Shown: positions 3,503 to 47,429 of the stretch, in pieces
Layout of the letters: each line of letters starts with the position of its first letter
Numbering within the stretch: position 1 is the first letter of the stretch
Assembly (NCBI GenBank): GCA_004402915.1
Contig: SORU01000001.1
Span: forward strand, 24,908-88,907
Length of the DNA: 64,000 nt
Direction: 5' to 3'
Origin: Fidelibacterota bacterium MT.SAG.2
GTDB taxonomy: Bacteria > Fidelibacterota > SORT01
The notes under the pieces: generated by a model
What the model was told of the DNA's origin: nothing
The model's input: only the letters and a program-made list of their open reading frames with translations
The model's database searches: none
Translations under genes and position numbers: made by a program

Positions 3503-6500
3503 ATGAATAAAAATATTAAAAACAACAACAAAAGCGACAAGCGGCGGTTCTTAACTGAGTGTCGCTGTTATATAACAGTGTTTGTTCTGTCCATGCTTCA
3601 GGTTCCGGCGCTTTTTGCGCAGGAAAATGAACAGTTGTCGATCTATCCTATTCCCGGATTTGTTCCGCTGTTCGAAGGGAGTTTTCAAGCGCTATATTGG
3701 TCTCCTCACGATTCTAATATTGTGATAGATGGCGCGGTACTGCCTTTAAAATCACCCTTGATCAAATCAACAGTAAAAATGGATTCTTCCGGAACATATT
3801 TTATATTTCGAAGAACGTATCGGGGGAAAGATATTCAAGCTCCGACCATCATAAGCCGATCGGATTATTATTTGCTCGCCAAGGATCATAGTTTTTTAGA
3901 ATTTTGGACGGAAAGATTAGAGGAAGTGATAAAACGAGAGAGAGAAGCAGGACGTGGAGGGGCTATCGAAATCGTCGGCGGAACGATTGCGGGACAGGAC
4001 GTAGCGCTTCGGGTGACCGGTAATATCAATATAAAGGGTGGTATTCGAAACGAAAGCAGGAGTACGGTCGCCCTTAATTTTGCAGAGAACCAAAGCACTT
4101 CCTTCAAGCTTGACCAAAAGCAGCGATTCAACATTGAAGGAACTATCGGTGATAAGATTAGTTTGCTTGTCGACCAGGATTCCGAAAGGGATTTTGAGTT
4201 TGAGAATGCGTTAAAAATTCATTACGTGGGAAATGAAGATGAAATCATTAAACGCATAGACGCAGGCAACATCGATCTCACCCTTCCGGGAACTAAGTTC
4301 GCCGTATCAGGCGGGCGCAATCAAGGGTTATTCGGGTTAAAATCACTAATGAAGATTGGTGGTATGGAAATTACGTCAATTGCGAGCGTTGAAAGAGGGA
4401 AAAAAGCAAAGCTGACATTGGATGGTGGAGCAACTTCACAGGTGAAAAGGATAAACGATTACGGTTATTTGAGAAACACATATTTTTTTCTCGATGATTA
4501 CTATAAAAATAGTTTCTATCCAACTATAGAAACTTTATTTCGCGCTAAACCTGCGAACAGGAGGATTCAAAATATAGAGGTTTATCTGACTGCCGGCGGC
4601 ACTGAAACCGGAAGCTTCGAGGCGATAGCCGTGCCCGATCCGAATTCCCCTGAGCAAATTGAAAATTTTACAGATTTCGGAGGAATAAAGCAGCGATTCA
4701 AACGATTGATAAAAAATATAGATTACGAAGTGAGCGAAAATCATGGATTCATCAGGATGAATACATACATGAGTAAGAATGATGTTCTTGCGATAAGCTA
4801 TATCGATTTTGGAGGAGATGTCTTCGGCGGACAAAGTGTGACTCTTGAAGGAGACAGTGCCGAATTGGCTGTATTGAAACTCATAAAGGGACGGAATCCA
4901 TTTCCGACAGATCTGACATGGAATTTGGAATTCAAAAATGTCTATTATCTTGGAGCAACAAATATAAACAGTGAGGGATTCGAATTAAAGATAGTTGATG
5001 ATCGTTCCTCAGGAGAGCCGCAGGAGAGAAATTCGAACGGCATAAATTTTCTTCAGTTATTCGGACTTGACTCCCTTGATGTTAACGGTAAATCACAACC
5101 TGACGAAATTTTCGATATAGACAGTGACGCTATAATCAATTTACAACGAGGAGAGTTATGGTTTCCGGCTTTGAGACCGTTTTATACTCCAAAGGCATTA
5201 GACTCGAGTTTTTACAGTCAGGCTATTTATGACAACACCATACCGACAGAACGGCAAGCGGCAAGCAAATTCAAAATTATTGTCTCTTATAAAAATCGGT
5301 CATCTACAATAAGCCTCGGTTTAAACTTTATTGAGGGAAGCGAAGAGGTTACATTGGACGGTGTAGTGCTCAATAGAGGATCAGACTATACTATAGATAC
5401 TTTCACGGGGCAGTTGACACTTCTAAAGGAAGGCGCCACCGATCCGGGAGCCAACTTAGAAATAAAATACGAAAATAATCAGCTCTTTCAATTGGACAAA
5501 AAATCGCTTTTGGGAACGAGAGCGGAGTATCGCTTTGGAGAAAATTCATTTTTCGGCGGAACATTTCTTTATTACAGCAAGAGTACAATAGACCGGAAGG
5601 TGAGAGTCGGTGAAGAACCGATACGAAATATGCTGTGGGATTTTAACGGTAAATATTCGGCGAAACCTAATTTTATTTCAAGGGGCGTGAATGCTCTTCC
5701 CTTAATTAAAACTGATCAACCTTCTTCGTTCAGCATGGAAGGCGAGATCGCAAGGATAATTCCGAATCCTAACACACTGAACAGTTCTGAAACGGGCGAC
5801 AATCAGGGAGTAGCATATTTAGATGATTTCGAAGCAAGTAAGAGAGTCACATCTCTGACTATAACCCGAAAGCATTGGTATAAAGCATCTCCTCCGGATT
5901 TTAAGATGGATGATGAGAGAGCATTTACATACTGGTACAATCCATTTGATCGTGTGTTAACAACAAATATTTGGAAGGACAGGGATACTGGGAATCAGGC
6001 AGGTAATCTTTTTACTGACGTGCTGAACATAGTAATCGATACAGAAAAAAACCAGAGAGATGTAGCCGACAGCACTATCGCACAGGAGCAACGATGGGGA
6101 GGCGTAATGAGAGCGCTGCCAGCAAGCTTTTTCGATCAAACCCAGACCAAATTTATTGAGATATGGATTAGGGGAAGCGAAGGACAGATTAATTTAGATA
6201 TTGGTCATATTAGCGAAGACGCAAATGATGACAATGTGTACAATACGGAAGATATACCTGTGGCTGGGACTATCGGCAACAATATAGTTGATGAAGGTGA
6301 GGATACGGGAATTGACGGATTGGATGACGAGGATGAGGAGGGCTATGATCCGAACTCCAATCCGGATCCAAATGCGGATAATTGGGAATTTGATTCGAAC
6401 GTCAGACCGCTCAATTATCGTAGAATAAACGGAACAGAGGGTAACCAGAATGATGAAGGCGGGAGAATCCCTGATAGTGAGGATCTCAACAGGAACACAT

Positions 6501-9500
6501 TTCTTGACACGAGAAGCGATTACTTTGAGTACTCGTTCTGGCTGGATGGCAGAGATGATCATCTCGTTGCAGGAGGAGATAAGAATGCCTGGCGCCTTTT
6601 CCGGCTACCGATAAATTCATATAATTATAAATCAGGTGCGAACGTTAATTTCCAAGATATACAATATGTTAGAGTTTGGATAACAGGTCTAACAGGTGAG
6701 AAAGTTGTTCAGATAGCGACTATTGAAATGGTCGCGAACGAGTGGCAGGAGTTAGGAGTAAAACGCAAAGGTTTTGCCGAGTTTGACAAGGAAGATTCCT
6801 CCTTTGCGATTACAATTGTGAATACGGAAGATAACAGCGATATCTATGACGGCAAGAGGGAGAATGGCGATCCGAGTCTTCAACCGCCTCCCGGAGTTGA
6901 GGGAGTTGAAGACCGGATAACAAGGGTAAGAGCGAAAGAACAATCGTTAGTTCTTAAATTTGACGATCTGCCTCCGGGAGCTATCGGAGCAGCAAGGAAG
7001 GTATTTTTCAACGAGCAGGATATAATAAGATACGGAAAGCTCAAGATGTTTGTGCATGGAGATAAACATTTCGGCAAAGACAGTTCTTCGGTAGAGTTTT
7101 TCATGAGGTTAGGCAGAAATGATGACAGTTACTACGAGATATCGGAACCGGTTTATCCCGGGTGGGACGAACGGAATTTTATCGAGATCGACTTAGATCT
7201 ACTGACGCAGCTGAAATTGCGAGAAGGAGACTCCTTCAACATCGGGCAAGGGAAAAAAGTGCGAATAGTGAATTCTCCGTCATTAACGAGACTTAAGCAG
7301 ATTGTAATCGGGATCAAAAATAAGCACAAGGTGGCGCCGATTTCAGGTCAGATCTGGCTTGACGAACTTCGTGTGTCTGAAATCAGCAGGGAGGGAGGAA
7401 TCGCGGCGCGCGCAAGCGCATCACTTAAAATAGCCGACATCGGAAACGTGAACTTTAGTGTGACGAAGCAGGATGCCGATTTTCATCGAATCCAGGAAAA
7501 AATCGGTAAAGCGGGTGGAAGCGCTGAAAATTTTTCGTACAGGTTCAACAATACATTTCAGTCAAACAAACTATTGCCGCCTCGATGGGGGCTTTCAATT
7601 CCGATATCCTTTAATATAAACCGTTCGGTTAGGACTCCCAAATATTTTCCGGGGACAGATATTAGGGTACAGGGAGCTGCTCCCGATTCTATTAAAAATC
7701 TTAATCTCCAAAAGATCTTTAAAATATCTTTTAAGAAGAACAGTAAATCACGCTCAAAGTTCATAAAATACAGTTTGGATAAATCTTCGGCGAATTTGAA
7801 TATCGTAAATCAAAACGGGAGCAGCAACCAAATTGCAAAGAAATTTTCCACTGCATACAATGGTGGCTATGCTTATAATTTACCTATAAAGCGTAAATCA
7901 AAGATAAAGCCGTTTTTCTGGGTTAGACCCGTCCCCTGGCTTGGCAAGAAAATAGGAGATGAAAAATTTAATTATTATCCGAATTCGTTCAACTGGAATA
8001 TAAAAGCGACCGAATCGAAGAGTAACAATATTCCTCGTCGCGGAGTTCCGACAGAATCTTACAAATTTAACATGGTAAGGAACTTTAAAACCGGCTTTCC
8101 TATATTTAAATCGGTAACTCTCGATTATGGAAGAGGCTGGACAAACGATCTAAGTGAATTGAGGCAGAGAAAATCTGACCTGTATTCAGGGGATTTCGGA
8201 ATTCTCACGAATGGAAATGAAAATTTTTCGACCAAGTGGAACCCCAGAATTTTCGACTTTATGTCAACAAGCTTTGGCTACAGCAGCACGTATCGGCTCC
8301 AGATTCAGAGGGTAGACACATTGAGTAGAAACAATGTGAGCAATCAAAATCAGTTTAACGCTAATTTAAATTTCAATCTGAAGAAATTCATGTCAATTTT
8401 CGCCAAAGAAGATACTAAGCCTAAAAAAGGAAAGAGTAAAAAACGGTCAAGCCGCCGCTCGACGAGAGGTAGGGGGAAGAAAAAACAAAAAGATGAAATA
8501 ATTAAAAAGGAAAAAAATAATCCTACTGTCGGTGAACTCTTAACATCACTTTCGAAAAAATTACAACCGGTGAATTTTACTTATTCCAAAAACAAAAATA
8601 TATCGAACCCCGCCTTGTTAGGAGAACCGGGATATGCATATAAATTAGGGTTCACCGAGGATCCGAATGTAGAAAGAGATCCACGTGTTGTTGCTGAAAA
8701 CAGAAAAGGGGAAACAACTAATTTTTCTACTCGAAGCGGACTGAATATAAGCCGGAATTTTACTGTAAATTTTTCCTATAGTCAGAACGAACGAAGAAAT
8801 AGAACCTCTTCGAGCAATTTGAACATAACAAAGACGAGAGATTTTTTCCCGATAGGCGTAACAGGAAGAGACGGCTTCCCCTTTCCAAACTGGAACTTTC
8901 GATTGTCGGGTCTTGAGAAACTGCCGATATTTACTAAGTTTACCAAAAGTGTGAGTCTTGAGCATGGGTTCGGAGGAAAGGAGAATGAAAAGGGATTGGA
9001 GACCATCAGGTTTATACAAGAAACAAATACGGATTCTATATCGAAGGAGATAACTGGTGTGGATTATTCTAAATCATGGCAACCGCTTGTGGGTATGACC
9101 TTTAATTTCAAAAAGAATATTTCTGCTACATTCAGGTTTAACAAATCATCATCAATATCAAATTTCTTCGGTGGAATAAGAGAAGGCACTCAACTTCAGA
9201 ATACATCTAATATTTCTTTAACCGCAAACTACTCAAGACGTGGAGGGCTCAATATTCCTCTTGTTTTCTTAAAGGATTTGAAACTCGATAACCAGGTATC
9301 GTTCTCCCTGACCTATGATAACGGTAAGAGTGAAACGCTTACGAGAACAGGTACAACTGAAGGAGAATTCGCTCCTATTAATCTCTCCAGAAGATGGAGC
9401 TTAAATCCGCAGATGACTTACTCTTTCAGCTCTAAATTGAATGGAGGTGTATTCTTTGAATTCGGAAAGACAGAGACAATACAAGGCTCTACAAGTTTCA

Positions 9501-9541
9501 GGGATTTTGGCGTCACGGTAAACATTGCTATTAGGGGGTAA
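3503..9541 (+). CDS. sprA: giant cell-surface/outer-membrane protein, SprA/Sov-like type IX secretion translocon candidate
   Basis: 2012-aa ORF with a signal peptide ending ALFA|QENE and beta-rich composition with low-complexity loops. It lies in a genome region full of T9SS cargo and PorV-like genes. Size and context fit SprA, but no specific SprA motif could be verified by eye. Confidence 0.55.
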   Translation: MNKNIKNNNKSDKRRFLTECRCYITVFVLSMLQVPALFAQENEQLSIYPIPGFVPLFEGSFQALYWSPHDSNIVIDGAVLPLKSPLIKSTVKMDSSGTYFIFRRTYRGKDIQAPTIISRSDYYLLAKDHSFLEFWTERLEEVIKREREAGRGGAIEIVGGTIAGQDVALRVTGNINIKGGIRNESRSTVALNFAENQSTSFKLDQKQRFNIEGTIGDKISLLVDQDSERDFEFENALKIHYVGNEDEIIKRIDAGNIDLTLPGTKFAVSGGRNQGLFGLKSLMKIGGMEITSIASVERGKKAKLTLDGGATSQVKRINDYGYLRNTYFFLDDYYKNSFYPTIETLFRAKPANRRIQNIEVYLTAGGTETGSFEAIAVPDPNSPEQIENFTDFGGIKQRFKRLIKNIDYEVSENHGFIRMNTYMSKNDVLAISYIDFGGDVFGGQSVTLEGDSAELAVLKLIKGRNPFPTDLTWNLEFKNVYYLGATNINSEGFELKIVDDRSSGEPQERNSNGINFLQLFGLDSLDVNGKSQPDEIFDIDSDAIINLQRGELWFPALRPFYTPKALDSSFYSQAIYDNTIPTERQAASKFKIIVSYKNRSSTISLGLNFIEGSEEVTLDGVVLNRGSDYTIDTFTGQLTLLKEGATDPGANLEIKYENNQLFQLDKKSLLGTRAEYRFGENSFFGGTFLYYSKSTIDRKVRVGEEPIRNMLWDFNGKYSAKPNFISRGVNALPLIKTDQPSSFSMEGEIARIIPNPNTLNSSETGDNQGVAYLDDFEASKRVTSLTITRKHWYKASPPDFKMDDERAFTYWYNPFDRVLTTNIWKDRDTGNQAGNLFTDVLNIVIDTEKNQRDVADSTIAQEQRWGGVMRALPASFFDQTQTKFIEIWIRGSEGQINLDIGHISEDANDDNVYNTEDIPVAGTIGNNIVDEGEDTGIDGLDDEDEEGYDPNSNPDPNADNWEFDSNVRPLNYRRINGTEGNQNDEGGRIPDSEDLNRNTFLDTRSDYFEYSFWLDGRDDHLVAGGDKNAWRLFRLPINSYNYKSGANVNFQDIQYVRVWITGLTGEKVVQIATIEMVANEWQELGVKRKGFAEFDKEDSSFAITIVNTEDNSDIYDGKRENGDPSLQPPPGVEGVEDRITRVRAKEQSLVLKFDDLPPGAIGAARKVFFNEQDIIRYGKLKMFVHGDKHFGKDSSSVEFFMRLGRNDDSYYEISEPVYPGWDERNFIEIDLDLLTQLKLREGDSFNIGQGKKVRIVNSPSLTRLKQIVIGIKNKHKVAPISGQIWLDELRVSEISREGGIAARASASLKIADIGNVNFSVTKQDADFHRIQEKIGKAGGSAENFSYRFNNTFQSNKLLPPRWGLSIPISFNINRSVRTPKYFPGTDIRVQGAAPDSIKNLNLQKIFKISFKKNSKSRSKFIKYSLDKSSANLNIVNQNGSSNQIAKKFSTAYNGGYAYNLPIKRKSKIKPFFWVRPVPWLGKKIGDEKFNYYPNSFNWNIKATESKSNNIPRRGVPTESYKFNMVRNFKTGFPIFKSVTLDYGRGWTNDLSELRQRKSDLYSGDFGILTNGNENFSTKWNPRIFDFMSTSFGYSSTYRLQIQRVDTLSRNNVSNQNQFNANLNFNLKKFMSIFAKEDTKPKKGKSKKRSSRRSTRGRGKKKQKDEIIKKEKNNPTVGELLTSLSKKLQPVNFTYSKNKNISNPALLGEPGYAYKLGFTEDPNVERDPRVVAENRKGETTNFSTRSGLNISRNFTVNFSYSQNERRNRTSSSNLNITKTRDFFPIGVTGRDGFPFPNWNFRLSGLEKLPIFTKFTKSVSLEHGFGGKENEKGLETIRFIQETNTDSISKEITGVDYSKSWQPLVGMTFNFKKNISATFRFNKSSSISNFFGGIREGTQLQNTSNISLTANYSRRGGLNIPLVFLKDLKLDNQVSFSLTYDNGKSETLTRTGTTEGEFAPINLSRRWSLNPQMTYSFSSKLNGGVFFEFGKTETIQGSTSFRDFGVTVNIAIRG

Positions 9542-9545
9542 TTAA

Positions 9546-22783: not shown

Positions 22784-22804
22784 TCTGCTGTAAAAAAGTC
22801 ATTC

Positions 22805-22844
22805 AGCCCGCTTTCTATTCTAAGCGGGCTTTTTATTTCTTTTG
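22805..22844 (+). terminator. rho-independent terminator
   Basis: Stem AGCCCGCTT/AAGCGGGCT with 8-nt loop, followed by TTTTTATTTCTTTTG. Confidence 0.65.
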
Positions 22845-22877
22845 ATTGAACTTTGAATTCCATAATATTTCCCGATC

Positions 22878-23294: not shown

Positions 23295-23307
23295 CAATTA
23301 GTTTGAA

Positions 23308-24216
23308 TCAGATACCTATCCCGAAGCTTATCTGGTGCGTATCGCCGAGGTTGAAATCGAAGGGGAGGTAGGCGTAATCAAAAGAGTATCGGTTTAGTCT
23401 GATGCCGATACCTGCCGTGATGCCGGAGGAATTTTCGGAGTTGCGTCTATAGCCGCCCCGCAAGCTGAGCATATCGTTGTGAATCAGTTCTCCGCCGAGC
23501 CGAACAAATGAATCGGATTCTAAATATTTACCGATGTCAAATGCCCAATTGAATCTGAGAGAAGTTGTCGGATCAAAACCGCTGCTCAGACCACCCGTAA
23601 TTCGTGTCGGCAGCGATGTTGATTCGTTACTCAGCGTTGACATGCTTCCGAGGTCTTTCAGAACTAAGGCGGATTTAAGATTAAAGAAATTGAGATTTTT
23701 AATCAGACCGAAATCAAGAGCAAACCCGTTTGCGGAGTAAATATGGATTTTTTCGTAGAGAAACTTTGCGGTAGCTCCTATCTTCAAATTACCATTCACA
23801 GCTGTCGCGGCACTGAATGCCATTGCCAATGAATTCGAGCTGAAATAACCCAACGGTTCCACAGTGGGACGTTCATCCCGCCTTTCGATATCGCCCACAC
23901 CGGATAGAGCAACACTTAGCCCGAAGTTCAGTTTATCTGAAGGAATATTCAGACCGAGAAATTGATTGTTGGAGCCGGCAAGCCACTCTTGATTAGAAAA
24001 GATGACGTTCATCCTGTCGGAAACGGCTATTCCGGCTGGATTCCAGTACGCCGCCGATGCGTCTGAAGCGTTGGCGACCGCCGCCCCGCCCATTGCCGAA
24101 GAGGCTGCATCCACACCGATTTTAAGGAACGACATACCGGTTGCAGCGCCGTCTCCGGCATAGAGGAAAGTTTGGAACAGCAGAAAAGCAACCGAAATGT
24201 TAATAAAATTTCTCAT
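23308..24216 (-). CDS. PorV/PorQ-family T9SS-associated outer-membrane beta-barrel protein (paralog 1)
   Basis: Signal peptide. N-terminal motif LKIGVDAASSAMGGAAVANASDASAAYWNPAGI, C-terminal ...SFGIGI. The motif is shared with ORFs 24217..25140 and 46437..47429. Confidence 0.55.
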   Translation of the reverse strand: MRNFINISVAFLLFQTFLYAGDGAATGMSFLKIGVDAASSAMGGAAVANASDASAAYWNPAGIAVSDRMNVIFSNQEWLAGSNNQFLGLNIPSDKLNFGLSVALSGVGDIERRDERPTVEPLGYFSSNSLAMAFSAATAVNGNLKIGATAKFLYEKIHIYSANGFALDFGLIKNLNFFNLKSALVLKDLGSMSTLSNESTSLPTRITGGLSSGFDPTTSLRFNWAFDIGKYLESDSFVRLGGELIHNDMLSLRGGYRRNSENSSGITAGIGIRLNRYSFDYAYLPFDFNLGDTHQISFGIGI

Positions 24217-25140
24217 TTAGAATATAAACTCCCAACTGAACAAATGAGTTCCCCCTTCGCCGACAAATTCCGGCTGAAAAGCATAATCTATGTTCGTATA
24301 AATTCCTTCAGATACAAAATAATACAGCCCGCCACCAAATGAGACAGAGGCGTCATCAATGCCGAATCTCAGCGAATAGAGTTCATTTCGTTGATACTCT
24401 ACGCCGAAACGGAAACGTTCCTCCTGCCGTTGGTTAAACTCCAAAGAGGATGCGATCAATAACCGGTTATCAAGCAAGTACGAACCGCCAATGTGAACGC
24501 TGTAGGGGATCTCATCGGTTGATTTTGTTCCGAATTCAAAAATCTTTTGGGTGTCCCATGTCAACCCGCCGTTATAATCCTTTAAGGTCACGCCCAAGCG
24601 CAGCGCGTCGAATGGAATAACCATAATACCGAAATCGAAAGCCAAGTCGTTTGCGTTGAGTTTTTCATCAACCAGGTCAAGTGATTGAGTCAGAATTTTC
24701 ATCGTGAGACCTAATGCCAACTTTTCGTGAAATTTATTCGAGAATGATATTCCAAATGCGTTCATGTTTTCGCTGTAATCGAACGTATGATTCCCCGACA
24801 GGTCCCGCCCGTCAATATTATCCGTGCCCGCGCCAAGCCAATATATCGAAAGCCCCGCAGTCGGTTTCAGGTTCTGGGAGTAAGAGATAAAATGGAACTG
24901 CCTGTGGAGCGTTAGGAACGAGTAAGTCGTAACAAAATGTCTCTTGGTTAAGAATGGGAGACCCGCCGGATTGTAGTACGCCGCGAATCCATCGTCAGCC
25001 ACTGCCGTGTGCGCTCCGCCCATCGATATTCCTCTCGCGCCGAGACCCATTCGCAGGAACGGAGCGGCAAAGCCGCCGTCACCCTGAGCAAATAGCGTAG
25101 CTGGCAGAAGAAGCAAAAATAGTGAAAATATTTTTATCAT
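24217..25140 (-). CDS. PorV/PorQ-family T9SS-associated outer-membrane beta-barrel protein (paralog 2)
   Basis: Signal peptide ending LFA|QGDG. Motif LRMGLGARGISMGGAHTAVADDGFAAYYNPAGL. Ends in WEFIF. Stop is adjacent to the start of paralog 1. Confidence 0.55.
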   Translation of the reverse strand: MIKIFSLFLLLLPATLFAQGDGGFAAPFLRMGLGARGISMGGAHTAVADDGFAAYYNPAGLPFLTKRHFVTTYSFLTLHRQFHFISYSQNLKPTAGLSIYWLGAGTDNIDGRDLSGNHTFDYSENMNAFGISFSNKFHEKLALGLTMKILTQSLDLVDEKLNANDLAFDFGIMVIPFDALRLGVTLKDYNGGLTWDTQKIFEFGTKSTDEIPYSVHIGGSYLLDNRLLIASSLEFNQRQEERFRFGVEYQRNELYSLRFGIDDASVSFGGGLYYFVSEGIYTNIDYAFQPEFVGEGGTHLFSWEFIF

Positions 25141-25141
25141 A

Positions 25142-26740
25142 TTATTCGATCACCATAACTTTACCCCAAAGCGCTTCTTCTCTGCCGGAGACGCTTCTGA
25201 TGGATATTTTGTAAAAATAAGTGCCGTTGGCAACGATATTCCCGAATCCGTTCCTGCCTGTCCAAACCTCATCCCATTCGCTCGCATTGCGCAGGACTCC
25301 CTTCACGGGTTCGGCTACCAATGTCATTGAAAAATCATACACGCTTATAGATACGGTGGATTCTTCGGAAAGTGAATAATGAAACCGGACGTGACCATCT
25401 CCTCCAAATGTGTTATGCCTTGCCGGAGAAAACGGATTAGGATATGAATACGTGCGTACGCTTCCCGGTTCGGATGTTGATTTTTGAGCACGAAGAATAG
25501 TCCATGTGAAACCGTCATTATCGGTATGAACGAGTCCGTCCGCTGTTCCAGCCCATAATCTTTTATCGGGCATTACGATTGCGGAATAGACCGTTTGAGT
25601 ATAGAGGGGAGTATCAGTTTCCCGGTCTGTTATATCCGAGAAAGATGCCCATGTGATACCGCCGTCAACAGACTTGAAAAGACCGCTGTCCGCCGCGGCA
25701 TATAGAACAGAATCATCTGAGGCGAAATTCCAAACCCTTTGACCGCGCAAAACAGTTCGCCATGATATGCCTCCGTCTTTGGTAAGCGAGACACCGAGAA
25801 ATTCACCTGCGACTGTGGGTCGAGTTGCCGCAAGAATAGTCTCTTCACCATTCCATTGGTGCCGGTGAAGAGAAACTGCCCAATCTCCGCTTATTCCGCT
25901 TCTGTTCCGGCTTGTAAATTTATACCATGAAACGCCGCCGTCGATAGAACGGTTGATGCCTCCCGCCGTTCCTACTATTACGGTATCACCCCACGCTATG
26001 ACGGAAAAGGGCCGATGATTAAAGCTGCCCGTAACGCCGAAAAAAGTGTTATTTACAGGGCTGAGGTCGAAATCGTGAATCGAAGAATCGGTCAGCACAT
26101 CTTCCTCGTCAGGAGGAAGCACGATCCGTTTCCATGTAGCGCCGAAGTCGGTTGAAGAACGAACGCCGCCTGCGAACGAAGTTATATAAATCGTTGTATC
26201 TTCCGTAATTGCTATCGCTATATCAAATGTAACGTTATCAACGTCAATGACGATCGGGAGCGCGTCAATCGTATCACCGAATATAATTTCAAACAGTGCG
26301 TCATCCGCATCTTTAGGCTGATCGATATGAGTCCAGCTGAATCCGTTGTCCATAGAAATGGTTAAACCGCTTCCAGTGCCGTTAGATTCCTCTACATCAG
26401 GATCGTCAAATGCATTTGCGACGATCACTATATCTCCCATAACGGCGAGAGCTGAAACTCCTCCCTTTCCAATGTCGAGTTCATCACGAGGAATGTATTC
26501 TTCAAATGTTGTTCCGTTGTCAGACGTAAAATTCAGACCTTTGCCTGTCCCGATCCAGATGGAATTAAGGTTTCCCATTTTCAAGTCGGTTACCGAGTTG
26601 CCGAGCAAACGCGCGCTTTTGTGGAGAGTCGAATGCCCATCTAAATTAAAGTCCCTTATCTGCTGCGCAAAAGAGAGACGGCTCAAAGAGAAAAGAATTA
26701 AGAGAGACGTGAGCAGAGTTGTTTTCGTAAACAGCTTCAT
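25142..26740 (-). CDS. BNR/Asp-box repeat protein with T9SS type-A C-terminal sorting domain
   Basis: Signal peptide SFA|QQIR. Six Asp-box motifs (SMDNGFSW, STDFGATW, SIDGGVSW, TKDGGISW, SVDGGITW, TDNDGFTW). C-terminal domain YSYPNPFSP...GTYFYKISIRS...GKVMVIE. Confidence 0.7.
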   Translation of the reverse strand: MKLFTKTTLLTSLLILFSLSRLSFAQQIRDFNLDGHSTLHKSARLLGNSVTDLKMGNLNSIWIGTGKGLNFTSDNGTTFEEYIPRDELDIGKGGVSALAVMGDIVIVANAFDDPDVEESNGTGSGLTISMDNGFSWTHIDQPKDADDALFEIIFGDTIDALPIVIDVDNVTFDIAIAITEDTTIYITSFAGGVRSSTDFGATWKRIVLPPDEEDVLTDSSIHDFDLSPVNNTFFGVTGSFNHRPFSVIAWGDTVIVGTAGGINRSIDGGVSWYKFTSRNRSGISGDWAVSLHRHQWNGEETILAATRPTVAGEFLGVSLTKDGGISWRTVLRGQRVWNFASDDSVLYAAADSGLFKSVDGGITWASFSDITDRETDTPLYTQTVYSAIVMPDKRLWAGTADGLVHTDNDGFTWTILRAQKSTSEPGSVRTYSYPNPFSPARHNTFGGDGHVRFHYSLSEESTVSISVYDFSMTLVAEPVKGVLRNASEWDEVWTGRNGFGNIVANGTYFYKISIRSVSGREEALWGKVMVIE

Positions 26741-26741
26741 G

Positions 26742-27569
26742 CTAGTCTATCAGTGTTACGGTTACTTTGAGTGTATCACTTTTCAGACCTGCAAAATCTT
26801 CGGCTTTTATCAAGAAATCGAAAATTCCCGTCTTTCCATCTTCATTGGCTGGATTGGTAGGCTGCGTAACGGAGTAAATTCCGTTACCGGCGATTTTATC
26901 ACCAAACAATCCGTCATCCCTCATAACGAAAGTAACATCTTGTTTGAGGGTAGAGTCGTTATGGATAAATACATCGTAAGTGACTTTCCGAATATCCGAT
27001 AAACCGTTTGAATCTGAGACGGCAACTTCTATGAATATGTTGTCGCCAAGAGCTACAGAATCTGTCATTGAGAATAAGGCAATTTTAGGCGGATAGTTCG
27101 TGATATCCAAGAGTAGTTCGAAATTATCAGCCGCATTTGAATCAAAATCAAAGGCGGAAATCAGAAACCGGAAACTTCCAAGCCCTGAATCAGTGAGTGA
27201 ATGGGAGAGAAGAGCTGAAAATCTCCCGTCTCCGCGGATAATGTCGCCGTTGATCCCACTGTCATTCAGCGCGCCTGTAAGAGAATCGACCCGCCCAGTC
27301 TTGAACGCTTTAAATGTTACCGAGGCAACAGTTGGCAGACCCTGTGGATCCGATAAAAGAGCTTCCAAGAAAAAACGTTGCGTGATATCATTATATTCTG
27401 CCCGAACACTATCAATAGACGGCGAAACTGATAGAGTGTCGGTGTCGTCTGTTTCGATGGGGAAATTCTCTTCGCAGGAACTGACCAACACAAAAAGTGA
27501 AATCAGCACGACGAGTGTTCGCGCCTGAGTATAAAAATATGTTTTATTCATCGTAAAAATTTCGGGCAA
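26742..27569 (-). CDS. hypothetical lipoprotein with Ig-like repeats
   Basis: Lipobox LVSSCEEN. Beta-rich repeated segments. Stop is 1 nt from the start of the BNR cargo gene. Confidence 0.45.
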   Translation of the reverse strand: MPEIFTMNKTYFYTQARTLVVLISLFVLVSSCEENFPIETDDTDTLSVSPSIDSVRAEYNDITQRFFLEALLSDPQGLPTVASVTFKAFKTGRVDSLTGALNDSGINGDIIRGDGRFSALLSHSLTDSGLGSFRFLISAFDFDSNAADNFELLLDITNYPPKIALFSMTDSVALGDNIFIEVAVSDSNGLSDIRKVTYDVFIHNDSTLKQDVTFVMRDDGLFGDKIAGNGIYSVTQPTNPANEDGKTGIFDFLIKAEDFAGLKSDTLKVTVTLID

Positions 27570-27712
27570 ATATACATGGAGTTAATGGATTTGTCAAGCC
27601 GAATAAGAATTGCAGATGGATTGTCCCTCAAATATCTTAAATAATGCCGATTTCATTAAAGCTTGCGAAATGCAACCTAAAGGTTTAAACTCTCGTAACT
27701 GGTTTTATAAAA

Positions 27713-43600: not shown

Positions 43601-46447
43601 GTGAAAATAAATTTCTTAAATCTGGAAATCAGTTTGACAGCAATTCTGCTGCTGACATTTTTAATCGGCGGAGATCTTCTCGCTCAACCGAGGGGGCAGC
43701 TAAGCGGACGGGTTATTGACTCCGAGAACGGAGAACCGATGCCGGGAGTAAATATAGTTTTGCCGGGAACCTATCACGGCGCCGCTTCCGGTCTCGACGG
43801 TGAATTTTCGATTAGAGGTGTCAGCGCCGGCGAGTATACCGTGAGATTTCAGTTTATCGGTTATACAACAGTCGAGGTAACCGGTGTGAAGATAACCGCG
43901 GGTCTGACTCGGACTCTTAACGCAGAAATGAACCAGACCGTGTTAGCGGCGGGACAGGAAATAGTGGTTATAGGAAAGAAAGCCCTCTTTGACATTGAAG
44001 AGACAGCAAGCCGCAGGGCGATCTCTGCGGATGAAATTGCCAATTCGGTAGTTGAAAGCACGCAAGATATTGTAGGAAATCAGGTCGGCGTTGTGATGTC
44101 TGATAATGAAATTCATATCAGAGGAGGTAGGTCGTATGAAAACGCGTATCTGCTCGACGGAATATCTATTCAGGACCCCCTGTCGGGAACAGGATTCGGA
44201 CTGCAGCTCAGCACAAATGCGATTGAAGAGATTGAAATTATAACGGGTGGATTCGCCGCAGAATATGGGCAGGCGATGTCAGGAATCATCAACGTTAAAA
44301 CAAAACAAGGCACGGATATATATCACGGATCCCTTTCTTATAAAACGGATAACTTTGGATTGTATGACAGCAGTTCACAATTCAATTTTAACACGGATGT
44401 TGTTGAAATGAGCATTGACGGACCCGATCCTTTTTTCGGAGTTTTGTTCCCGATGTTAGGGTTTGATCTCCCCGGCAAGCAGACTTTCTTCGCAAACAGT
44501 TACATGTTCATTTCAGATGACTTTACGAAATTCTCAGCGGATACGCTGATTTCTTCCACATTTCATGGTATAAAATACGCGCCACGGCAAAATAATAATT
44601 GGTCCGCAATGCTCAAGTACACCTGGACCATTACGCCTAAGCACAAATTGCAATATACTTATAATGCTTCTGTGAGCATAAATCAGAATACACAGAGCCT
44701 GCAATCAAATTTGGAATTTGTCCCGCCGGGTCCCGGCTATCCGTATCGGTTCCAAAACAATCTGAATAATTTTAATACATTCACCCATTTGAATCGTCAA
44801 ACCGGGTTGGGGTGGACACATACGTTAGGCTCAAGAACATTTTATGAGGTAAAGCTCAGTAATTTCTTCACTAATCTTCGAAGTGACGTTGGCGGAAAGC
44901 TCTGGAATGAGTTTATCGAACCGAAGGATATCGTCACATTTCCTATAGTGTATATAGACACTGATACAAATAGGATATTGGTATTTCCCGGAGATGGTTT
45001 TTACGATTTCGGGAACGGAGACACTTGGCACGACCATTGGGTGGACGAGTATACGCTAAAAGCGGACATTACTCACCAGAAGAACGAACGTCAGGAGATC
45101 AAGGCGGGAGTGGAGCTTTCATATCAGGAGATGCAGCTATTCGATATCCTGAATCCCTGGGAAGGACCGTTAGGAAAGAACAACGATTTTTATAAGGTTT
45201 ACCCAAGCTTCGGCGGAATTTATATTCAGGAAAAAATAGTGATGCAGGGACTTGTAGCGAATATAGGTCTTAGATTTGATTATTGGTTTCCCGGCAAATA
45301 TGTGGAACGCGCCGTAGCTGATACCAATATCGTTACGATCTCACCCGGTACGAGAACAGCTTTTGAAAATGATACCTTCGGTCTGTTCGGAAGACGATGG
45401 AAAGGGCGTATAAGCCCGAGATTAGGGATCTCTCATCCGGTGTCGGATAAACAGGTACTCTTCTTTAGTTATGGGCATTTCTCCAAAAGACCGAAACCAC
45501 AATTTGTGTACGCAAAACTCGGCAAAATTTCATCCAAAACTTCATCCCCTGTCTTCGGCAATCCGAATCTTGATCCTGAGACTACCGTTTCCTATGAACT
45601 TGGAGTGAAGAATCGCTTTACCGAAGATGACGTGCTTACAATTACAGCGTTTTACAAGGATATCTTTGATTACATCACTACCATTCCTGTACCCGGAACC
45701 GGCAGATTCAGGAAGCAGACATTCATTACATATTTAAACCTTGATTACTCCAGGGTCAGGGGCATAGAGATGGAATATAGAACGAGGGCGGGCACTCATC
45801 TCTCGGGTTCTGTAAACGGTTCATATTCTATCTCTACAGGTAAAAGCTCCTCTCCCGATGATGCCGCTCTTGTCCAGCGGGGCGATCGACCGGAGAGAAG
45901 GATCACCGAGGATTTTCTAATATGGGACAGACCTTGGCAAGGATCTATAAATTTGAATTACCGTATTACAGAAGGGAATAATCCCGAACTGTTCGGCATA
46001 AAACTGCCGGATAAATGGAATCTGAACTTCCGTTACTTTGCTCAGGCAGGCAAGCGTTACAGACCTATAGTGGCTACCGGCGATTCTCTTCGAAACAACA
46101 GACCTATATATACGCGTGATATAGATGGTGATGGTTACGATGATGATATTTACGCTAATGTTGCCGAACATTGGGCTTGGGCAAATCTAAATATCGAGAA
46201 ATGGTATAACGTCGGCGGAAAAGAGGTTTCCATATTTTTGGAAGTGCTGAATCTTTTCAACAGGAAAAATTCAAATATTATTAATCCTGTTACAGGAAGA
46301 GCATATGAATTAGGAGATCCGACACCAACAAGCTGGAACGATCCATTATTCCCTGAAACCCAAGCGCCGGTTTCTCCGTTTCCGTTTAACCCCGCCCGGT
46401 ACCTAAACCAAAGAAACTTGAAGGTCGGAGTTAGATTTGTCTGGTAA
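43601..46447 (+). CDS. TonB-dependent receptor-type outer-membrane barrel with N-terminal CarbopepD-regulatory-like domain
   Basis: Signal DLLA|QPRG. GRVIDSENGEPMPGVNIVLPGTYHGAASGLDGEFSIRGVSAGEYTVRFQFIGY is CarbopepD_reg. Plug motif EIHIRGGRSYENAYLLDGISIQDPLSG. C-terminal GVRFVW. Confidence 0.75.
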   Translation: MKINFLNLEISLTAILLLTFLIGGDLLAQPRGQLSGRVIDSENGEPMPGVNIVLPGTYHGAASGLDGEFSIRGVSAGEYTVRFQFIGYTTVEVTGVKITAGLTRTLNAEMNQTVLAAGQEIVVIGKKALFDIEETASRRAISADEIANSVVESTQDIVGNQVGVVMSDNEIHIRGGRSYENAYLLDGISIQDPLSGTGFGLQLSTNAIEEIEIITGGFAAEYGQAMSGIINVKTKQGTDIYHGSLSYKTDNFGLYDSSSQFNFNTDVVEMSIDGPDPFFGVLFPMLGFDLPGKQTFFANSYMFISDDFTKFSADTLISSTFHGIKYAPRQNNNWSAMLKYTWTITPKHKLQYTYNASVSINQNTQSLQSNLEFVPPGPGYPYRFQNNLNNFNTFTHLNRQTGLGWTHTLGSRTFYEVKLSNFFTNLRSDVGGKLWNEFIEPKDIVTFPIVYIDTDTNRILVFPGDGFYDFGNGDTWHDHWVDEYTLKADITHQKNERQEIKAGVELSYQEMQLFDILNPWEGPLGKNNDFYKVYPSFGGIYIQEKIVMQGLVANIGLRFDYWFPGKYVERAVADTNIVTISPGTRTAFENDTFGLFGRRWKGRISPRLGISHPVSDKQVLFFSYGHFSKRPKPQFVYAKLGKISSKTSSPVFGNPNLDPETTVSYELGVKNRFTEDDVLTITAFYKDIFDYITTIPVPGTGRFRKQTFITYLNLDYSRVRGIEMEYRTRAGTHLSGSVNGSYSISTGKSSSPDDAALVQRGDRPERRITEDFLIWDRPWQGSINLNYRITEGNNPELFGIKLPDKWNLNFRYFAQAGKRYRPIVATGDSLRNNRPIYTRDIDGDGYDDDIYANVAEHWAWANLNIEKWYNVGGKEVSIFLEVLNLFNRKNSNIINPVTGRAYELGDPTPTSWNDPLFPETQAPVSPFPFNPARYLNQRNLKVGVRFVW

Positions 46448-47429
46448 AATTTTCAAACAGATTTTTATTTCAGCTTTTATTCTGTTATCGGTTGAACAGT
46501 CCGTAGCGCAATTGGTACCGGTTCTTGGCGGTCAGCGCGCAGGCACGGCAGCAGCCCAATTTCTTAAGATAGGTGTAGGAGCTCGGGCTACCGCTATGGG
46601 AGATGCTTTTGTTGCTGTGGCGGATGATGCCACAGCTCTATATTGGAATCCCGCGGGAATCGTTCAGTTCGAGAATAACCAAATTACCCTGAGCCATATT
46701 GACTGGCTTGTAGATATGAAGCACGAATTTATCGGTTACGTACACAAACTCAATTCCGCAAGCAGCATAGGTTTTCAATTCACTTCCCTGCACATGGAAG
46801 ATATGCCGGTTACAACTGAATTTCAGCAGCGTGGTACAGGTGAATATTTCACATTTAGCGATATCCTTTTGGGAGTCACATTTGCGTCCAGGCTTACGGA
46901 CAAATTCAGTTTCGGAGCTACGCTAAAATATTTCGATGAAACGTTGGATGTCCTGTCTATGAATGGAGTTCTTGTAGATCTCGGCACATACTATAAAGTA
47001 GGCATAGGTTCTGCCCGATTTGCCGTTGCAGTAACCAATTTCGGCGGTCAGGTGGAGCCGAGCGGAAGTATAAGGCAGAATGACGGGACGGAAATAACAG
47101 AATTTCAATCTTTTAATCCACCCACCCTGTTTAGAATTGCATACGCGCAAGAACTGTTCGAAAATGAGAAAAACAAGTTGACCTCCTCGATACAGCTGAG
47201 TCATCCGAATGATAATTCAGAAAACATAAATATCGGACTCGAATATTGGTGGGATAAACAAATAGCGCTCCGGGGCGGATACAAACTGAACGTAGATGAA
47301 GAAAGTCTCTCTTTGGGCGCAGGTGTGAATACATCCGTCGCCGGTTATAGCGTTGCCATAGATTATTCCTATTCGAATTTCAGTATTCTCGGCGATGTGA
47401 ACCGCTTCTCCTTTAACATAGGTTTTTAG
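46437..47429 (+). CDS. PorV/PorQ-family T9SS-associated outer-membrane beta-barrel protein (paralog 3)
   Basis: Signal SVA|QLVP. Motif LKIGVGARATAMGDAFVAVADDATALYWNPAGI. Ends in FNIGF. TTG start overlaps the TBDR stop by 11 nt. Confidence 0.55.
   Translation: MSGKIFKQIFISAFILLSVEQSVAQLVPVLGGQRAGTAAAQFLKIGVGARATAMGDAFVAVADDATALYWNPAGIVQFENNQITLSHIDWLVDMKHEFIGYVHKLNSASSIGFQFTSLHMEDMPVTTEFQQRGTGEYFTFSDILLGVTFASRLTDKFSFGATLKYFDETLDVLSMNGVLVDLGTYYKVGIGSARFAVAVTNFGGQVEPSGSIRQNDGTEITEFQSFNPPTLFRIAYAQELFENEKNKLTSSIQLSHPNDNSENINIGLEYWWDKQIALRGGYKLNVDEESLSLGAGVNTSVAGYSVAIDYSYSNFSILGDVNRFSFNIGF

What the first reader, a model, noticed from the sequence alone, without database searches (positions are those of the whole stretch)
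23308..27569. Minus-strand operon: lipoprotein, BNR/Asp-box T9SS cargo, then two tandem PorV/PorQ-family barrel paralogs
Four genes with 0-2 nt spacing. A CTD-bearing cargo with six Asp-box repeats is immediately followed by two adjacent paralogous PorV/PorQ-like outer-membrane proteins. Both carry the motif G-A-R/A-x-x-x-M-G-G-A-x-x-A-x-x-D-x-x-A-A-Y-x-N-P-A-G. A third paralog lies at 46437. PorV is normally a single shared shuttle for type-A CTD cargo. Cargo-linked, duplicated PorV-like genes suggest dedicated, cargo-specific shuttle or anchor proteins. This would be a variation on the SprB/SprF-type pairing known for type-B cargo.
Basis: partly seen in the sequence, partly recalled or inferred. 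Interest (0 to 1): 0.6.

Follow-up and report, generated by a model that had tools for sequence, protein, structure and literature searches.

The report
Conserved PorV-like barrel pair with surface partners
This Marinimicrobia operon is one copy of an undescribed four-gene outer-membrane module, kept in the same order across several Bacteroidota-related phyla, that most likely anchors a type IX-secreted propeller protein and a lipoprotein on two dedicated PorV-like barrels.

Summary
Four minus-strand genes spaced 1, 1 and 0 nt apart encode a lipoprotein, a 532-aa Asp-box beta-propeller with a C-terminal T9SS-type domain, and two PorV/PorQ-family barrels, B2 and B1. A third paralog lies at 46437.

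The interpretation needs revision. The barrels are not a local duplication. They are 27% identical, no closer to each other than to the third paralog, and form two distinct orthogroups. LIPO-BNR-B2-B1 occurs in exactly that order in 57 of 64 informative loci from Marinimicrobia, KSB1, Calditrichota, Ignavibacteria and related MAGs. Both barrels are present in 62 of 64. Flanking genes are housekeeping genes.

Neither barrel reaches the PorV, PorQ, PorV2, PorP/SprF, FadL or BamG cut-offs. The propeller protein is conserved throughout, including its CTD, so it looks like a component rather than ordinary cargo. Its nearest solved relatives are BT4663-type sensors and PorZ.

The closest precedent is PorQ-PorZ and PorV-PorU, not SprB-SprF. 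Rate co-variation suggests the CTD docks on B2, B2 contacts B1, and the lipoprotein contacts the propeller. Function is inferred only. I rate it a new variant of a known kind.

The parts
27569..27597 (-). Promoter-like site (TTGACA-17-TATATT) directly upstream of the operon
   Evidence: 11 of 12 consensus matches, the best site in 22300-28200. It is a consensus match only, not proof of function.
26742..27551 (-). LIPO: a 269-aa lipoprotein (lipobox LVSS|C) with two tandem ~105-aa Ig-like repeats carrying the motif DDG-x(3-4)-GD-x2-AGDG-x-YS. The mechanical ORF extends to a TTG at 27569.
   Evidence: There is a weak hit to choice-of-anchor X (24.1 bits, cut-off 25). Orthologs have 2-4 repeats. 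LIPO is present in 75 of 76 loci with enough upstream sequence.
25142..26740 (-). [quoted passage not shown]
   Evidence: AF2 model pLDDT 83.8, pTM 0.83. Nearest PDB folds are BT4663-type sensor ectodomains and PorZ 5m11. The family profile hits BT4663 at 4e-18.
25481..26608 (-). Beta-propeller region of BNR (residues ~45-420) with seven Asp-box-like motifs
   Evidence: Weak Sortilin-Vps10, BNR and Reg_prop hits. All 30 aligned family members hit F510_1955 weakly.
25145..25459 (-). T9SS-type C-terminal domain of BNR (residues ~428-532) with motifs YPNPFSP, HVRFHY, VANGTYFY and WGKVMVIE
   Evidence: Homologous to the window's TIGR04183-positive CTDs (E 4e-10 and 6e-10). PorU C-terminal region hit in 28 of 30 members, PorZ model in 20 of 30, TIGR04183 in 2 of 30. 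Conservation is at least that of the propeller.
24217..25140 (-). B2: a 307-aa PorV/PorQ-family outer-membrane barrel with an N-terminal hatch bearing the NPAG motif; the more divergent of the two orthogroups
   Evidence: NF033709 97.5 bits, cut-off 90. 39 of 39 orthologs hit the family. The profile hits F. johnsoniae PorV at 7.6e-15. AF2 pLDDT 89.8. Best TM-score is to PorV 6h3i_F, 0.70/0.63. Its evolutionary rate co-varies with the BNR CTD.
23308..24216 (-). B1: a 302-aa PorV/PorQ-family outer-membrane barrel; the orthogroup closest to PorQ and PorV
   Evidence: NF033709 154.9 bits. 37 of 39 orthologs hit the family. The profile hits PorV 6h3i_F at 6.8e-31. It co-varies with B2 but not with the CTD.
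46437..47429 (+). B3: the third PorV/PorQ-family paralog (330 aa). It lies in a separate cluster and is not part of the module.
   Evidence: NF033709 221.7 bits. 30% identity to B1 and 25% to B2. It sits between a TonB-dependent receptor-like gene and an NHL lipoprotein gene.
3503..9541 (+). SprA/Sov T9SS translocon (2012 aa). This is context showing that the genome has a T9SS.
   Evidence: SprA_N 151.8 bits, E 4.1e-44.

Best explanation
The operon encodes a self-contained, vertically inherited four-protein outer-membrane and cell-surface complex that depends on the T9SS for assembly.

Shown:
- It comprises two anciently diverged PorV/PorQ-family barrels (B2 and B1), a signal-peptide-bearing single beta-propeller protein with a T9SS-type CTD, and a lipoprotein built of Ig-like repeats.
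- All four are co-encoded in the same order across Marinimicrobia, KSB1, Calditrichota, Ignavibacteria and related MAGs.

Inferred mechanism:
- All four proteins cross the inner membrane by Sec, and the barrels are inserted into the outer membrane.
- The propeller protein crosses the outer membrane through SprA by means of its CTD.
- It is then captured by a dedicated PorV-family barrel instead of being passed to a sortase and stripped of its CTD. It stays anchored through the retained CTD, as PorZ is on PorQ and PorU on PorV.
- Rate co-variation and gene adjacency point to B2 as the CTD dock, B1 as B2's barrel partner, and the lipoprotein as a partner of the propeller.

Likely activity: the propeller's closest relatives are the glycan-binding sensor propellers that PorZ also resembles. 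The most likely activity is therefore binding a cell-surface glycan or glycolipid, in a housekeeping envelope role. That role may be part of T9SS cargo attachment.
For: - Conservation: the exact order LIPO-BNR-B2-B1 occurs in 57 of 64 informative loci. Both barrels are present in 62 of 64, and LIPO in 75 of 76. Contexts called independently show the same layout.
- Breadth: at least 388 related loci were confirmed in species-representative genomes. About 1,034 clusters at 50% identity match at E <= 1e-30.
- Barrels: both pass NF033709, as do 39 of 39 and 37 of 39 orthologs. The profiles hit PorV 6h3i_F at 6.8e-31 and 7.6e-15, with FadL-type channels only marginal. The B2 model is closest to PorV by TM-score and rmsd.
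- CTD: it is homologous to type A CTDs in the same window. It is as conserved as the propeller. A pTM of 0.83 suggests the CTD is packed against the propeller.
- Propeller: its nearest relatives are BT4663/BT3049 and PorZ. PorZ itself is described as resembling BT4663 and as being exported with its CTD intact.
- Precedent: PorU and PorZ are anchored through PorV and PorQ, and the PorQ-PorZ subcomplex forms without PorU or PorV.
- Co-variation (partial r): CTD-B2 0.39 [0.29-0.48], B1-B2 0.50, propeller-LIPO 0.36, CTD-B1 0.00. For each of the four coupled pairs tested, 0 of 500 permutations reached the observed value.
- Neighbours are housekeeping genes (M50 protease, HAD, PdxJ, S41, ExbBD, IDH), not cargo islands. 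The window also encodes SprA.
Against: - Nothing here shows a physical interaction, surface exposure or CTD retention.
- The CTD fails TIGR04183 in 28 of 30 members.
- PorZ is not recovered by the family's sequence profile. Hits to the PorZ model are weak and, where the matched region was shown, mostly in the CTD.
- Foldseek TM-scores to PorZ and BT4663 are low, at 0.17-0.29. This protein has one propeller where PorZ has two.
- No T9SS gene recurs next to the cassette.
- The PorV/PorQ family label also occurs in Elusimicrobiota, Lindowbacteria and Terriglobales. The label alone therefore does not imply T9SS involvement.
- Sequence similarity makes B1 the more PorQ/PorV-like barrel, whereas co-variation links the CTD to B2. 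The two lines of evidence do not agree on which barrel is the dock.
- Mirror-tree correlations are exploratory and can be inflated by shared phylogeny.
- Lipoprotein surface exposure is unresolved. Acidic LES-like residues follow the Cys in only 20 of the 49 orthologs where a lipobox was detected.
Confidence: 0.55

Rival explanations
1. B1 and B2 are cargo-specific transient shuttles, like SprF for SprB. They collect the BNR cargo at the translocon and deliver or release it. BNR is an ordinary effector such as a glycosidase.
For: There is tight gene linkage between a CTD protein and PorV-like barrels. Cognate shuttle-cargo gene pairs are established for type B cargo in F. johnsoniae. All 30 aligned BNR family members hit the F510_1955 glycosylhydrolase model weakly.
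Against: The barrels are not PorP/SprF: there is no hit for the window proteins, and only 9 of 39 B1 orthologs hit weakly. The CTD is type A-like, not type B. The 'cargo' is a conserved housekeeping-context component whose CTD is as conserved as its body. A conserved lipoprotein and a second barrel are not explained. F510_1955 scores (54 bits) are far below the 175-bit cut-off.
Confidence: 0.12
2. B1 and B2 are simply these phyla's general PorV and PorQ. The cassette is then the orthologous core attachment machinery serving all T9SS cargo, with BNR as the PorZ ortholog.
For: One locus was found per genome among the 80 retained loci, and the synteny is housekeeping-type. The B1 family's best specific models are PorQ (7.7e-35) and PorV (2.5e-26). 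BNR family members hit the PorZ model in 20 of 30 cases. PorZ and BNR share BT4663-like relatives.
Against: All equivalog cut-offs are missed by wide margins. PorV scores are 61 and 34 against 250, PorQ 97 and 50 against 220, and PorZ 14.7 against 260. The same genome has a third paralog that scores higher on the family and PorV models (221.7 and 88 bits). There is no PorU-like sortase in the cassette or the window. BNR has one propeller, not two.
Confidence: 0.15
3. The cassette encodes accessory subunits of the beta-barrel assembly machinery, analogous to Bacteroidota BamG (a FadL-like barrel), BamH (a surface lipoprotein) and BamI (a propeller lipoprotein).
For: The architectures are parallel. 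There are weak NCBIfam hits: BamG for B2 (E 0.0035) and for 3 and 6 of 39 orthologs, and BamI for 5 of 30 BNR members. The gene neighbourhood is housekeeping and envelope-related.
Against: The hits are marginal (16 bits against a cut-off of 250). The B2 model is closer to PorV (TM 0.70) than to BamG (0.55-0.59). No bamA or bamD appears among the recurrent neighbours. BNR has a signal peptide plus a CTD, not a lipobox.
Confidence: 0.07
4. The barrels are FadL-type uptake channels for hydrophobic or amphipathic substrates. BNR and the lipoprotein act as surface capture proteins, and the module has no relation to T9SS function.
For: The fold is FadL-superfamily, with TM 0.58-0.68 to FadL, TodX and CymD. 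The NPA(G) hatch motif is retained. The PorV/PorQ family label also occurs in Elusimicrobiota, Lindowbacteria and Terriglobales.
Against: Sequence profiles favour PorV over FadL-type channels by more than 10 orders of magnitude. Toluene_X scores are below cut-off (about 15 against 29.7). The partner carries a T9SS CTD homologous to local type A CTDs. All hosts identified in the survey belong to the FCB group.
Confidence: 0.06

Closest known systems
PorQ-PorZ subcomplex (and PorV-PorU) of the Porphyromonas gingivalis T9SS attachment complex
   Same: A PorV-family barrel holds a T9SS-exported beta-propeller protein through a CTD that is not removed. Two barrels and two surface proteins make up one complex. 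BNR shares PorZ's nearest structural relatives, the BT4663-type sensors.
   Different: BNR has one propeller, not two. No sortase is present; the fourth member is an Ig-repeat lipoprotein. All four genes form one operon, whereas to my recollection porQ and porZ are unlinked in P. gingivalis (not checked here). PorQ, PorV and PorZ equivalog cut-offs are all missed. The hosts are Marinimicrobia, KSB1, Calditrichota and Ignavibacteria rather than Bacteroidia. CTD retention is untested.
PorV (LptO), the general type A cargo shuttle (F. johnsoniae 6h3i chain F)
   Same: It is the closest solved structure and sequence relative of both barrels. It has the same N-terminal hatch motif.
   Different: B1 and B2 are about 300 aa against about 400 aa for PorV. 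They fall far below the PorV equivalog cut-off. They are genetically dedicated to one conserved partner instead of serving many cargoes.
SprF/PorP-like carriers paired with type B CTD cargo (SprB-SprF; Fjoh_1677 and others)
   Same: The principle of a cognate barrel encoded next to the CTD protein it carries or anchors.
   Different: The barrel family is different: there is no PorP/SprF membership. The CTD class is different: type A-like, not CHU_C/type B. SprF cargoes are variable adhesins, whereas here the partner is a conserved core protein.
Bacteroidota BAM canopy subunits BamG, BamH and BamI
   Same: A 14-stranded FadL-like barrel anchors surface proteins, including a lipoprotein and a beta-propeller protein.
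   Different: Only marginal sequence hits. B2's fold is closer to PorV. There is no linkage to bamA or bamD. The propeller protein is a CTD protein, not a lipoprotein.
Periplasmic sensor domains of Bacteroides hybrid two-component systems (BT4663, BT3049; Reg_prop propellers plus Y_Y_Y domain)
   Same: They are the best sequence-profile and fold matches of the BNR protein. Both have a propeller followed by an Ig-like beta-sandwich, and the sensors bind glycans.
   Different: The sensors have two propellers, a transmembrane segment and kinase modules, and they face the periplasm. BNR is a stand-alone secreted protein with a T9SS CTD.

Membership tests
PorV/PorQ family (NCBIfam NF033709) | Whole-protein HMM score above the curated cut-off of 90 bits | tested here: met
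   B1 154.9, B2 97.5 and B3 221.7 bits. 37 of 39 B1 orthologs and 39 of 39 B2 orthologs match.
PorV/PorQ family (NCBIfam NF033709) | FadL-superfamily beta-barrel with an N-terminal hatch, closest to PorV | tested here: met
   B2 AF2 model pLDDT 89.8, with a ~65-residue N-terminal helical/coil segment followed by a barrel. Best TM-score is to PorV 6h3i_F, 0.70/0.63 with rmsd 5.8. B1 was not modelled, but its profile hits PorV at 6.8e-31.
PorV equivalog (NF033710) | Score of at least 250 bits | tested here: not met
   B1 61.1, B2 34.2 and B3 88.0 bits.
PorQ equivalog (NF033711) | Score of at least 220 bits | tested here: not met
   B1 97.5, B2 50.3 and B3 94.7 bits.
PorV2 equivalog (NF052325) | Score of at least 325 bits | tested here: not met
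   B1 74.9, B2 52.7 and B3 73.4 bits.
PorP/SprF family (TIGR03519) | HMM match | tested here: not met
   No hit at E <= 1 for the window's barrels. Only 9 of 39 B1 orthologs hit weakly, best E 9.4e-7. PorP/SprF is not among the six families that B2 orthologs matched.
FadL/OmpP1/TodX transporters (PF03349 Toluene_X) | Pfam gathering score of 29.7 bits | tested here: not met
   14.5 and 15.0 bits. Profile hits to TbuX, TodX and CymD have E between 1e-3 and 2e-2. The similarity is at fold level only.
BamG (NF053685) | Score of at least 250 bits; association with BamA | tested here: not met
   B2 scores 16.4 bits. 3 and 6 of 39 orthologs hit marginally. TM to BamG chains is 0.55-0.59, lower than to PorV. 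Association with BamA is not testable here.
T9SS type A CTD (TIGR04183 Por_Secre_tail) | HMM score of at least 23 bits | tested here: not met
   No hit at E <= 1 for the window protein. Only 2 of 30 family members hit.
T9SS type A CTD (TIGR04183 Por_Secre_tail) | C-terminal ~80-100-aa beta-sandwich homologous to bona fide type A CTDs | tested here: met
   BLASTP against the CTDs of two TIGR04183-positive proteins of the same window gives E 4e-10 and 6e-10. The PorU CTD region is hit in 28 of 30 members. PorU 6za2 residues 1071-1143 are hit at E 0.007. Residues 430-530 of the model are beta strands.
T9SS type B CTD (CHU_C PF13585) | Pfam gathering score of 27 bits | tested here: not met
   14.6 bits, E 0.037.
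PorZ (NF052228) | Score of at least 260 bits | tested here: not met
   14.7 bits for the window protein. The best score among family relatives scanned individually is 32 bits, and those hits are CTD-confined. 20 of 30 aligned members hit the model, best E 1.6e-7. The family profile does not recover the PorZ 5m11 sequence.
PorZ (NF052228) | Two beta-propellers followed by a CTD | tested here: not met
   The model shows one propeller plus a CTD. The 791-aa form in L064 is the same propeller with an inserted domain, not a second propeller.
PorZ (NF052228) | Exported by the T9SS with the CTD retained and anchored on a PorV-family barrel | not testable with these tools
   Only indirect support: CTD conservation at least equal to the propeller's, gene linkage and CTD-B2 rate co-variation.
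BNR/Asp-box propeller | Repeated S/T-x-D-x-G-x-x-W/F motifs on a beta-propeller | tested here: met
   Seven motifs. The fold is a propeller. The Pfam BNR and Sortilin-Vps10 scores are below gathering (19.3 against 27, and 28.5 against 33).
SprB/SprF-type cognate pair | Type B CTD cargo plus an adjacent PorP/SprF-family carrier | tested here: not met
   Neither component belongs to the required family. Only the principle of gene linkage is shared.

The most novel reading that the evidence does not exclude
The cassette is the attachment or anchoring module of the T9SS in the non-Bacteroidia FCB phyla. It would be a compact, operon-encoded counterpart or ancestor of the PorQ-PorZ/PorV-PorU attachment complex. 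In this reading a single-propeller PorZ analogue, docked by its retained CTD on one of two dedicated PorV-family barrels and assisted by an Ig-repeat lipoprotein, binds a surface glycolipid and is needed to fix type A cargo to the cell surface.
Probability: 0.2. Interest if true: 0.8.

Novelty: new variant of a known kind. Interest (0 to 1): 0.55.

Why it matters
T9SS mechanism is known almost entirely from two Bacteroidota models. How cargo is attached in the many other T9SS-bearing FCB phyla is unstudied. I found no paper in the searchable library linking T9SS to KSB1, Calditrichota, Ignavibacteria or Marinisomatota.

A four-gene module conserved across these phyla pairs PorV-family barrels with a PorZ-like CTD protein. 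That gives a concrete and testable candidate for the missing machinery.

It also adds to a wider pattern in which small FadL/PorV-like barrels act as membrane sockets for surface proteins. PorV-PorU, PorQ-PorZ and BamG-BamH are the established examples.

The operon arrangement makes co-expression, structure prediction of the complex and genetics straightforward.

Tried and rejected
1. BamG/BamI lead. Weak NCBIfam hits prompted reading of the two 2025 Bacteroidota BAM papers. Family-wide scans and the fold comparison showed the hits are marginal and that PorV is closer. I kept this only as a low-probability rival.

2. Double-propeller (true PorZ architecture) variants. The ~780-880-aa relatives found do not pass the PorZ model, and their PorZ hits are confined to the CTD. 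The 791-aa cassette member in L064 is the same propeller with a ~250-aa insertion.

3. Surface-export (LES-like) signal in the lipoprotein. Acidic residues follow the Cys in only 20 of the 49 orthologs where a lipobox was detected. This is inconclusive.

4. T9SS or LPS genes as conserved neighbours. None recur. The recurrent neighbours are housekeeping genes.

5. My initial guess that B1 docks the CTD and B2 the lipoprotein. Co-variation does not support it.

6. A structure prediction of the lipoprotein was dropped once the alignment showed simple tandem Ig-like repeats.

8. Literature searches for 'PorV2' and for T9SS in these phyla found nothing relevant.

9. A genome-wide census of PorU, PorZ, PorQ and PorV in cassette-bearing genomes could not be done.

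Full report
**1. What is in the sequence**

The minus strand between 23308 and 27569 carries four back-to-back ORFs, separated by 1, 1 and 0 nt. A strong sigma70-like site, TTGACA-17-TATATT, ends at 27569. Database homologs of the first protein are 265-269 aa. The first gene therefore most likely starts at the ATG at 27551.

- LIPO (269 aa) has a lipobox, LVSS|C. It contains two ~105-aa Ig-like repeats with a DDG-x(3-4)-GD-x2-AGDG-x-YS motif.
- BNR (532 aa) has a signal peptide and seven Asp-box-like motifs. It ends in a ~105-aa C-terminal domain.
- B2 (307 aa) and B1 (302 aa) both have signal peptides. They share the N-terminal motif M-G-G-A-x2-A-x3-D-x2-A-A-Y-x-N-P-A-G.

The window closely matches Candidatus Marinimicrobia MT.SAG.3, with 92% amino-acid identity for BNR. 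It also encodes the T9SS translocon SprA/Sov at 3503-9541. Two further proteins in the window carry canonical type A CTDs.

**2. Classification of the barrels**

Both barrels pass the NCBIfam PorV/PorQ family model, at 154.9 and 97.5 bits against a cut-off of 90. Both fall far short of the PorV, PorQ and PorV2 equivalog cut-offs. Neither has a PorP/SprF hit. Pfam Toluene_X (FadL) scores are below gathering.

I built orthogroup profiles from syntenic loci.
- They are homologous to each other (hhalign E 1.7e-40, 24% identity).
- They hit F. johnsoniae PorV (6h3i_F) at 6.8e-31 for B1 and 7.6e-15 for B2.
- FadL-type channels appear only at E above 1e-3.

Family-wide scans agree. 37 of 39 B1 orthologs and 39 of 39 B2 orthologs match the PorV/PorQ family. 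B1 leans towards PorQ and B2 towards the 'PorV2' model. BamG is hit by only 6 and 3 orthologs respectively.

An AF2 model of B2 (pLDDT 89.8) is a FadL-superfamily barrel. Its best TM-score and rmsd are to PorV (0.70/0.63, 5.8 A). FadL and TodX follow at TMq 0.58-0.68, and BamG at 0.55-0.59.

One caveat applies. Proteins given the same family label by NCBI also occur in Elusimicrobiota, Lindowbacteria and Terriglobales. I am not aware of a T9SS in those groups and did not check. The label alone therefore does not prove a T9SS role.

**3. The barrels are not a local duplication**

B1 and B2 are 27% identical. B1 and the distant third paralog B3 (46437-47429) are 30% identical, and B2 and B3 are 25% identical.

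Across 85 loci, the gene after BNR always best-matches B2. The following gene best-matches B1, except in L022, where it best-matches B3. Each barrel ORF scores at least 84 bits better against its own orthogroup HMM than against the other. This margin is partly circular, because the HMMs were trained on a subset of the same loci. The split therefore predates the divergence of the lineages carrying the cassette.

**4. The cassette is a conserved module**

BNR has hundreds of homologs at 35-45% identity. Labelled hosts include Marinimicrobia/Neomarinimicrobiota/Fidelibacterota, KSB1, Calditrichota and Ignavibacteria. There are also many loosely labelled MAGs, whose names are unreliable. About 1,034 clusters at 50% identity match the family profile at E <= 1e-30.

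Among 64 loci with at least 2.1 kb downstream of BNR:
- 57 show exactly LIPO-BNR-B2-B1.
- 62 contain both barrels.
- The exceptions are L062 (no barrels within 6 kb), L072 (no B1) and L019 (rearranged to B2-LIPO-BNR-B1).
- LIPO is present in 75 of 76 loci with enough upstream sequence.

In L086, an S8 peptidase with a type A CTD occupies the LIPO position.

Flanking genes differ between lineages. The recurrent ones are housekeeping or envelope genes: M50 protease in 27 loci, HAD hydrolase in 17, Polysacc_deac_2 in 16, IDH in 15, PdxJ in 15, S41 protease in 14, and ExbB/ExbD. None is a T9SS gene. Polysacc_deac_2 and PdxJ also lie 7-9 kb from the cassette in this window.

This is the signature of a vertically inherited core module, not of an accessory cargo island.

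**5. The BNR protein**

The AF2 model (pLDDT 83.8, pTM 0.83) shows one beta-propeller followed by a beta-sandwich.

Foldseek ranks the BT4663-type hybrid two-component sensor ectodomains first (E 1.6e-15) and PorZ (5m11) tenth (E 4.6e-14). GH74 enzymes, sortilin and Ycf48 follow. TM-scores to the two-propeller proteins are low.

The family's sequence profile also hits BT4663 (4.2e-18) and BT3049 (3.8e-16) best. It touches the PorU CTD (6za2, E 0.007) but does not recover PorZ. The original PorZ paper names BT4663 as PorZ's architectural relative. It also shows that PorZ reaches the surface by the T9SS with its CTD intact.

The C-terminal domain misses TIGR04183, which only 2 of 30 family members hit. 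It nevertheless aligns with the TIGR04183-positive CTDs of two proteins in the same window, at E 4e-10 and 6e-10. It differs from them by a 10-residue insertion after PNPFSP. 28 of 30 members hit the PorU C-terminal region, and 20 of 30 hit the PorZ model. Where the matched region was shown for relatives, the PorZ hit lay in the CTD.

The CTD is as conserved as the propeller (0.59 vs 0.57). That would be unusual for a signal that is cleaved and discarded. It fits a domain that stays in use.

**6. Mechanism**

The literature gives two precedents.

First, PorU and PorZ are T9SS substrates whose CTDs are not cleaved. They are anchored on the PorV and PorQ barrels respectively. The PorQ-PorZ subcomplex forms without PorU or PorV, and PorQ is proposed to collect PorZ at the translocon.

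Second, in the Bacteroidota BAM complex, the FadL-like barrel BamG holds the surface lipoprotein BamH by its N-terminus. BamI is a surface lipoprotein with a propeller.

I therefore propose that the four proteins form one surface complex. BNR would be exported through SprA, captured by a dedicated PorV-family barrel, and held by its retained CTD.

An exploratory mirror-tree analysis over 56 taxa, reported as partial correlations, supports a specific wiring:
- CTD-B2: 0.39 [0.29-0.48]
- propeller-B2: 0.31
- B1-B2: 0.50
- propeller-LIPO: 0.36
- CTD-B1: 0.00
- LIPO with either barrel: about 0.04-0.10
- For each of the four coupled pairs tested, 0 of 500 permutations reached the observed value.

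This suggests that the CTD docks on B2, whose gene is also adjacent to BNR. It also suggests that B2 contacts B1 and that the lipoprotein contacts the propeller.

These steps are inferred, not shown. Sequence similarity would instead have nominated B1, the more PorQ-like barrel, as the dock.

Given the propeller's relatives, the biochemical role is most likely binding of a surface glycan or glycolipid. Whether that serves T9SS cargo attachment, as in PorZ, is open.

**7. Rivals**

- A SprF-like transient shuttle for an ordinary cargo. This fails on barrel family, CTD class and the core-gene behaviour of BNR.
- The general PorV and PorQ of these phyla. This is weakened by the missed equivalog cut-offs, by a third and more PorV-like paralog in the same genome, and by the absence of a sortase.
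- BAM accessory subunits. Only marginal hits support this, and there is no bamA linkage.
- FadL-type uptake channels. This is contradicted by the profile preference for PorV and by the CTD partner.

**8. Novelty and verdict**

I found no description of this cassette. I also found no paper on T9SS attachment components in these phyla in the searchable literature. NCBI's models name the barrels only at family level and leave BNR and LIPO unnamed.

The principle, a PorV-family barrel anchoring a CTD protein, is known. The composition, operon organisation and phyletic range are new. I rate it a new variant of a known kind.

The main limits are these:
- There is no interaction or localisation evidence.
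- MAG taxonomy labels are unreliable.
- I could not run a genome-wide census of canonical attachment genes in cassette-bearing genomes.

Noticed in passing
window 42029-51157 (+), with 37638-41960 upstream: A second cluster is linked to a PorV-family barrel. Its gene order is: lipoprotein (520 aa), TonB-dependent receptor-like protein (948 aa), barrel B3 (overlapping the receptor gene by 11 nt), NHL-repeat lipoprotein (466 aa), then a PLD/NucT-like nuclease with a type A CTD. Upstream lie an ExeM/NucH-like nuclease with a CTD and a 747-aa protein with a weak hit to the PorZ CTD. This again pairs a PorV-like barrel with a propeller-type surface protein, possibly in a nucleic-acid scavenging locus. 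The receptor-B3-NHL gene core, followed by a fourth gene, recurs on three metagenome contigs that carry the identical B3 protein.
   Followed up: partly
window 3503-10460 (+): SprA/Sov T9SS translocon (2012 aa; SprA_N E 4e-44), followed by an M28 peptidase.
   Followed up: partly
window 19444-22017 (-): An operon of an ECF sigma factor, a zf-HC2 anti-sigma-like protein and a 426-aa unknown protein lies about 1.3 kb beyond the end of the cassette on the same strand. An ECF sigma factor also lies near the cassette in L001. No link between the two was established.
   Followed up: no
window 34749-36515 (+): Polysacc_deac_2 and PdxJ are two of the families that recur beside the cassette in the other genomes surveyed. 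Here they lie 7-9 kb away, which suggests a remnant of an old synteny block.
   Followed up: partly
L086:4382-6196: In one genome an S8 peptidase with a Por_Secre_tail CTD occupies the position normally held by the lipoprotein gene, directly upstream of BNR-B2-B1.
   Followed up: no
L064:5998-8373: A 791-aa cassette BNR protein carries a ~250-residue domain inserted into the propeller at the family's variable loop. It is not a second propeller. Separately, ~780-880-aa relatives matched in three stretches exist in the representative database and are not PorZ.
   Followed up: partly
window 13175-16422 (+): A TonB-dependent receptor-like protein with CarboxypepD_reg and Plug domains is followed by a DUF4249 protein.
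   Followed up: no
window 54865-55956 (+): An IS481-like transposase (HTH and rve_3 domains) lies next to uvrA.
   Followed up: no
P0254, P0255, P0235, P0200: Proteins that NCBI labels, or that match, 'PorV/PorQ family' occur in Elusimicrobiota, Lindowbacteria and Terriglobales MAGs. I am not aware of a T9SS in these groups and did not check. The family may be broader than the T9SS.
   Followed up: no
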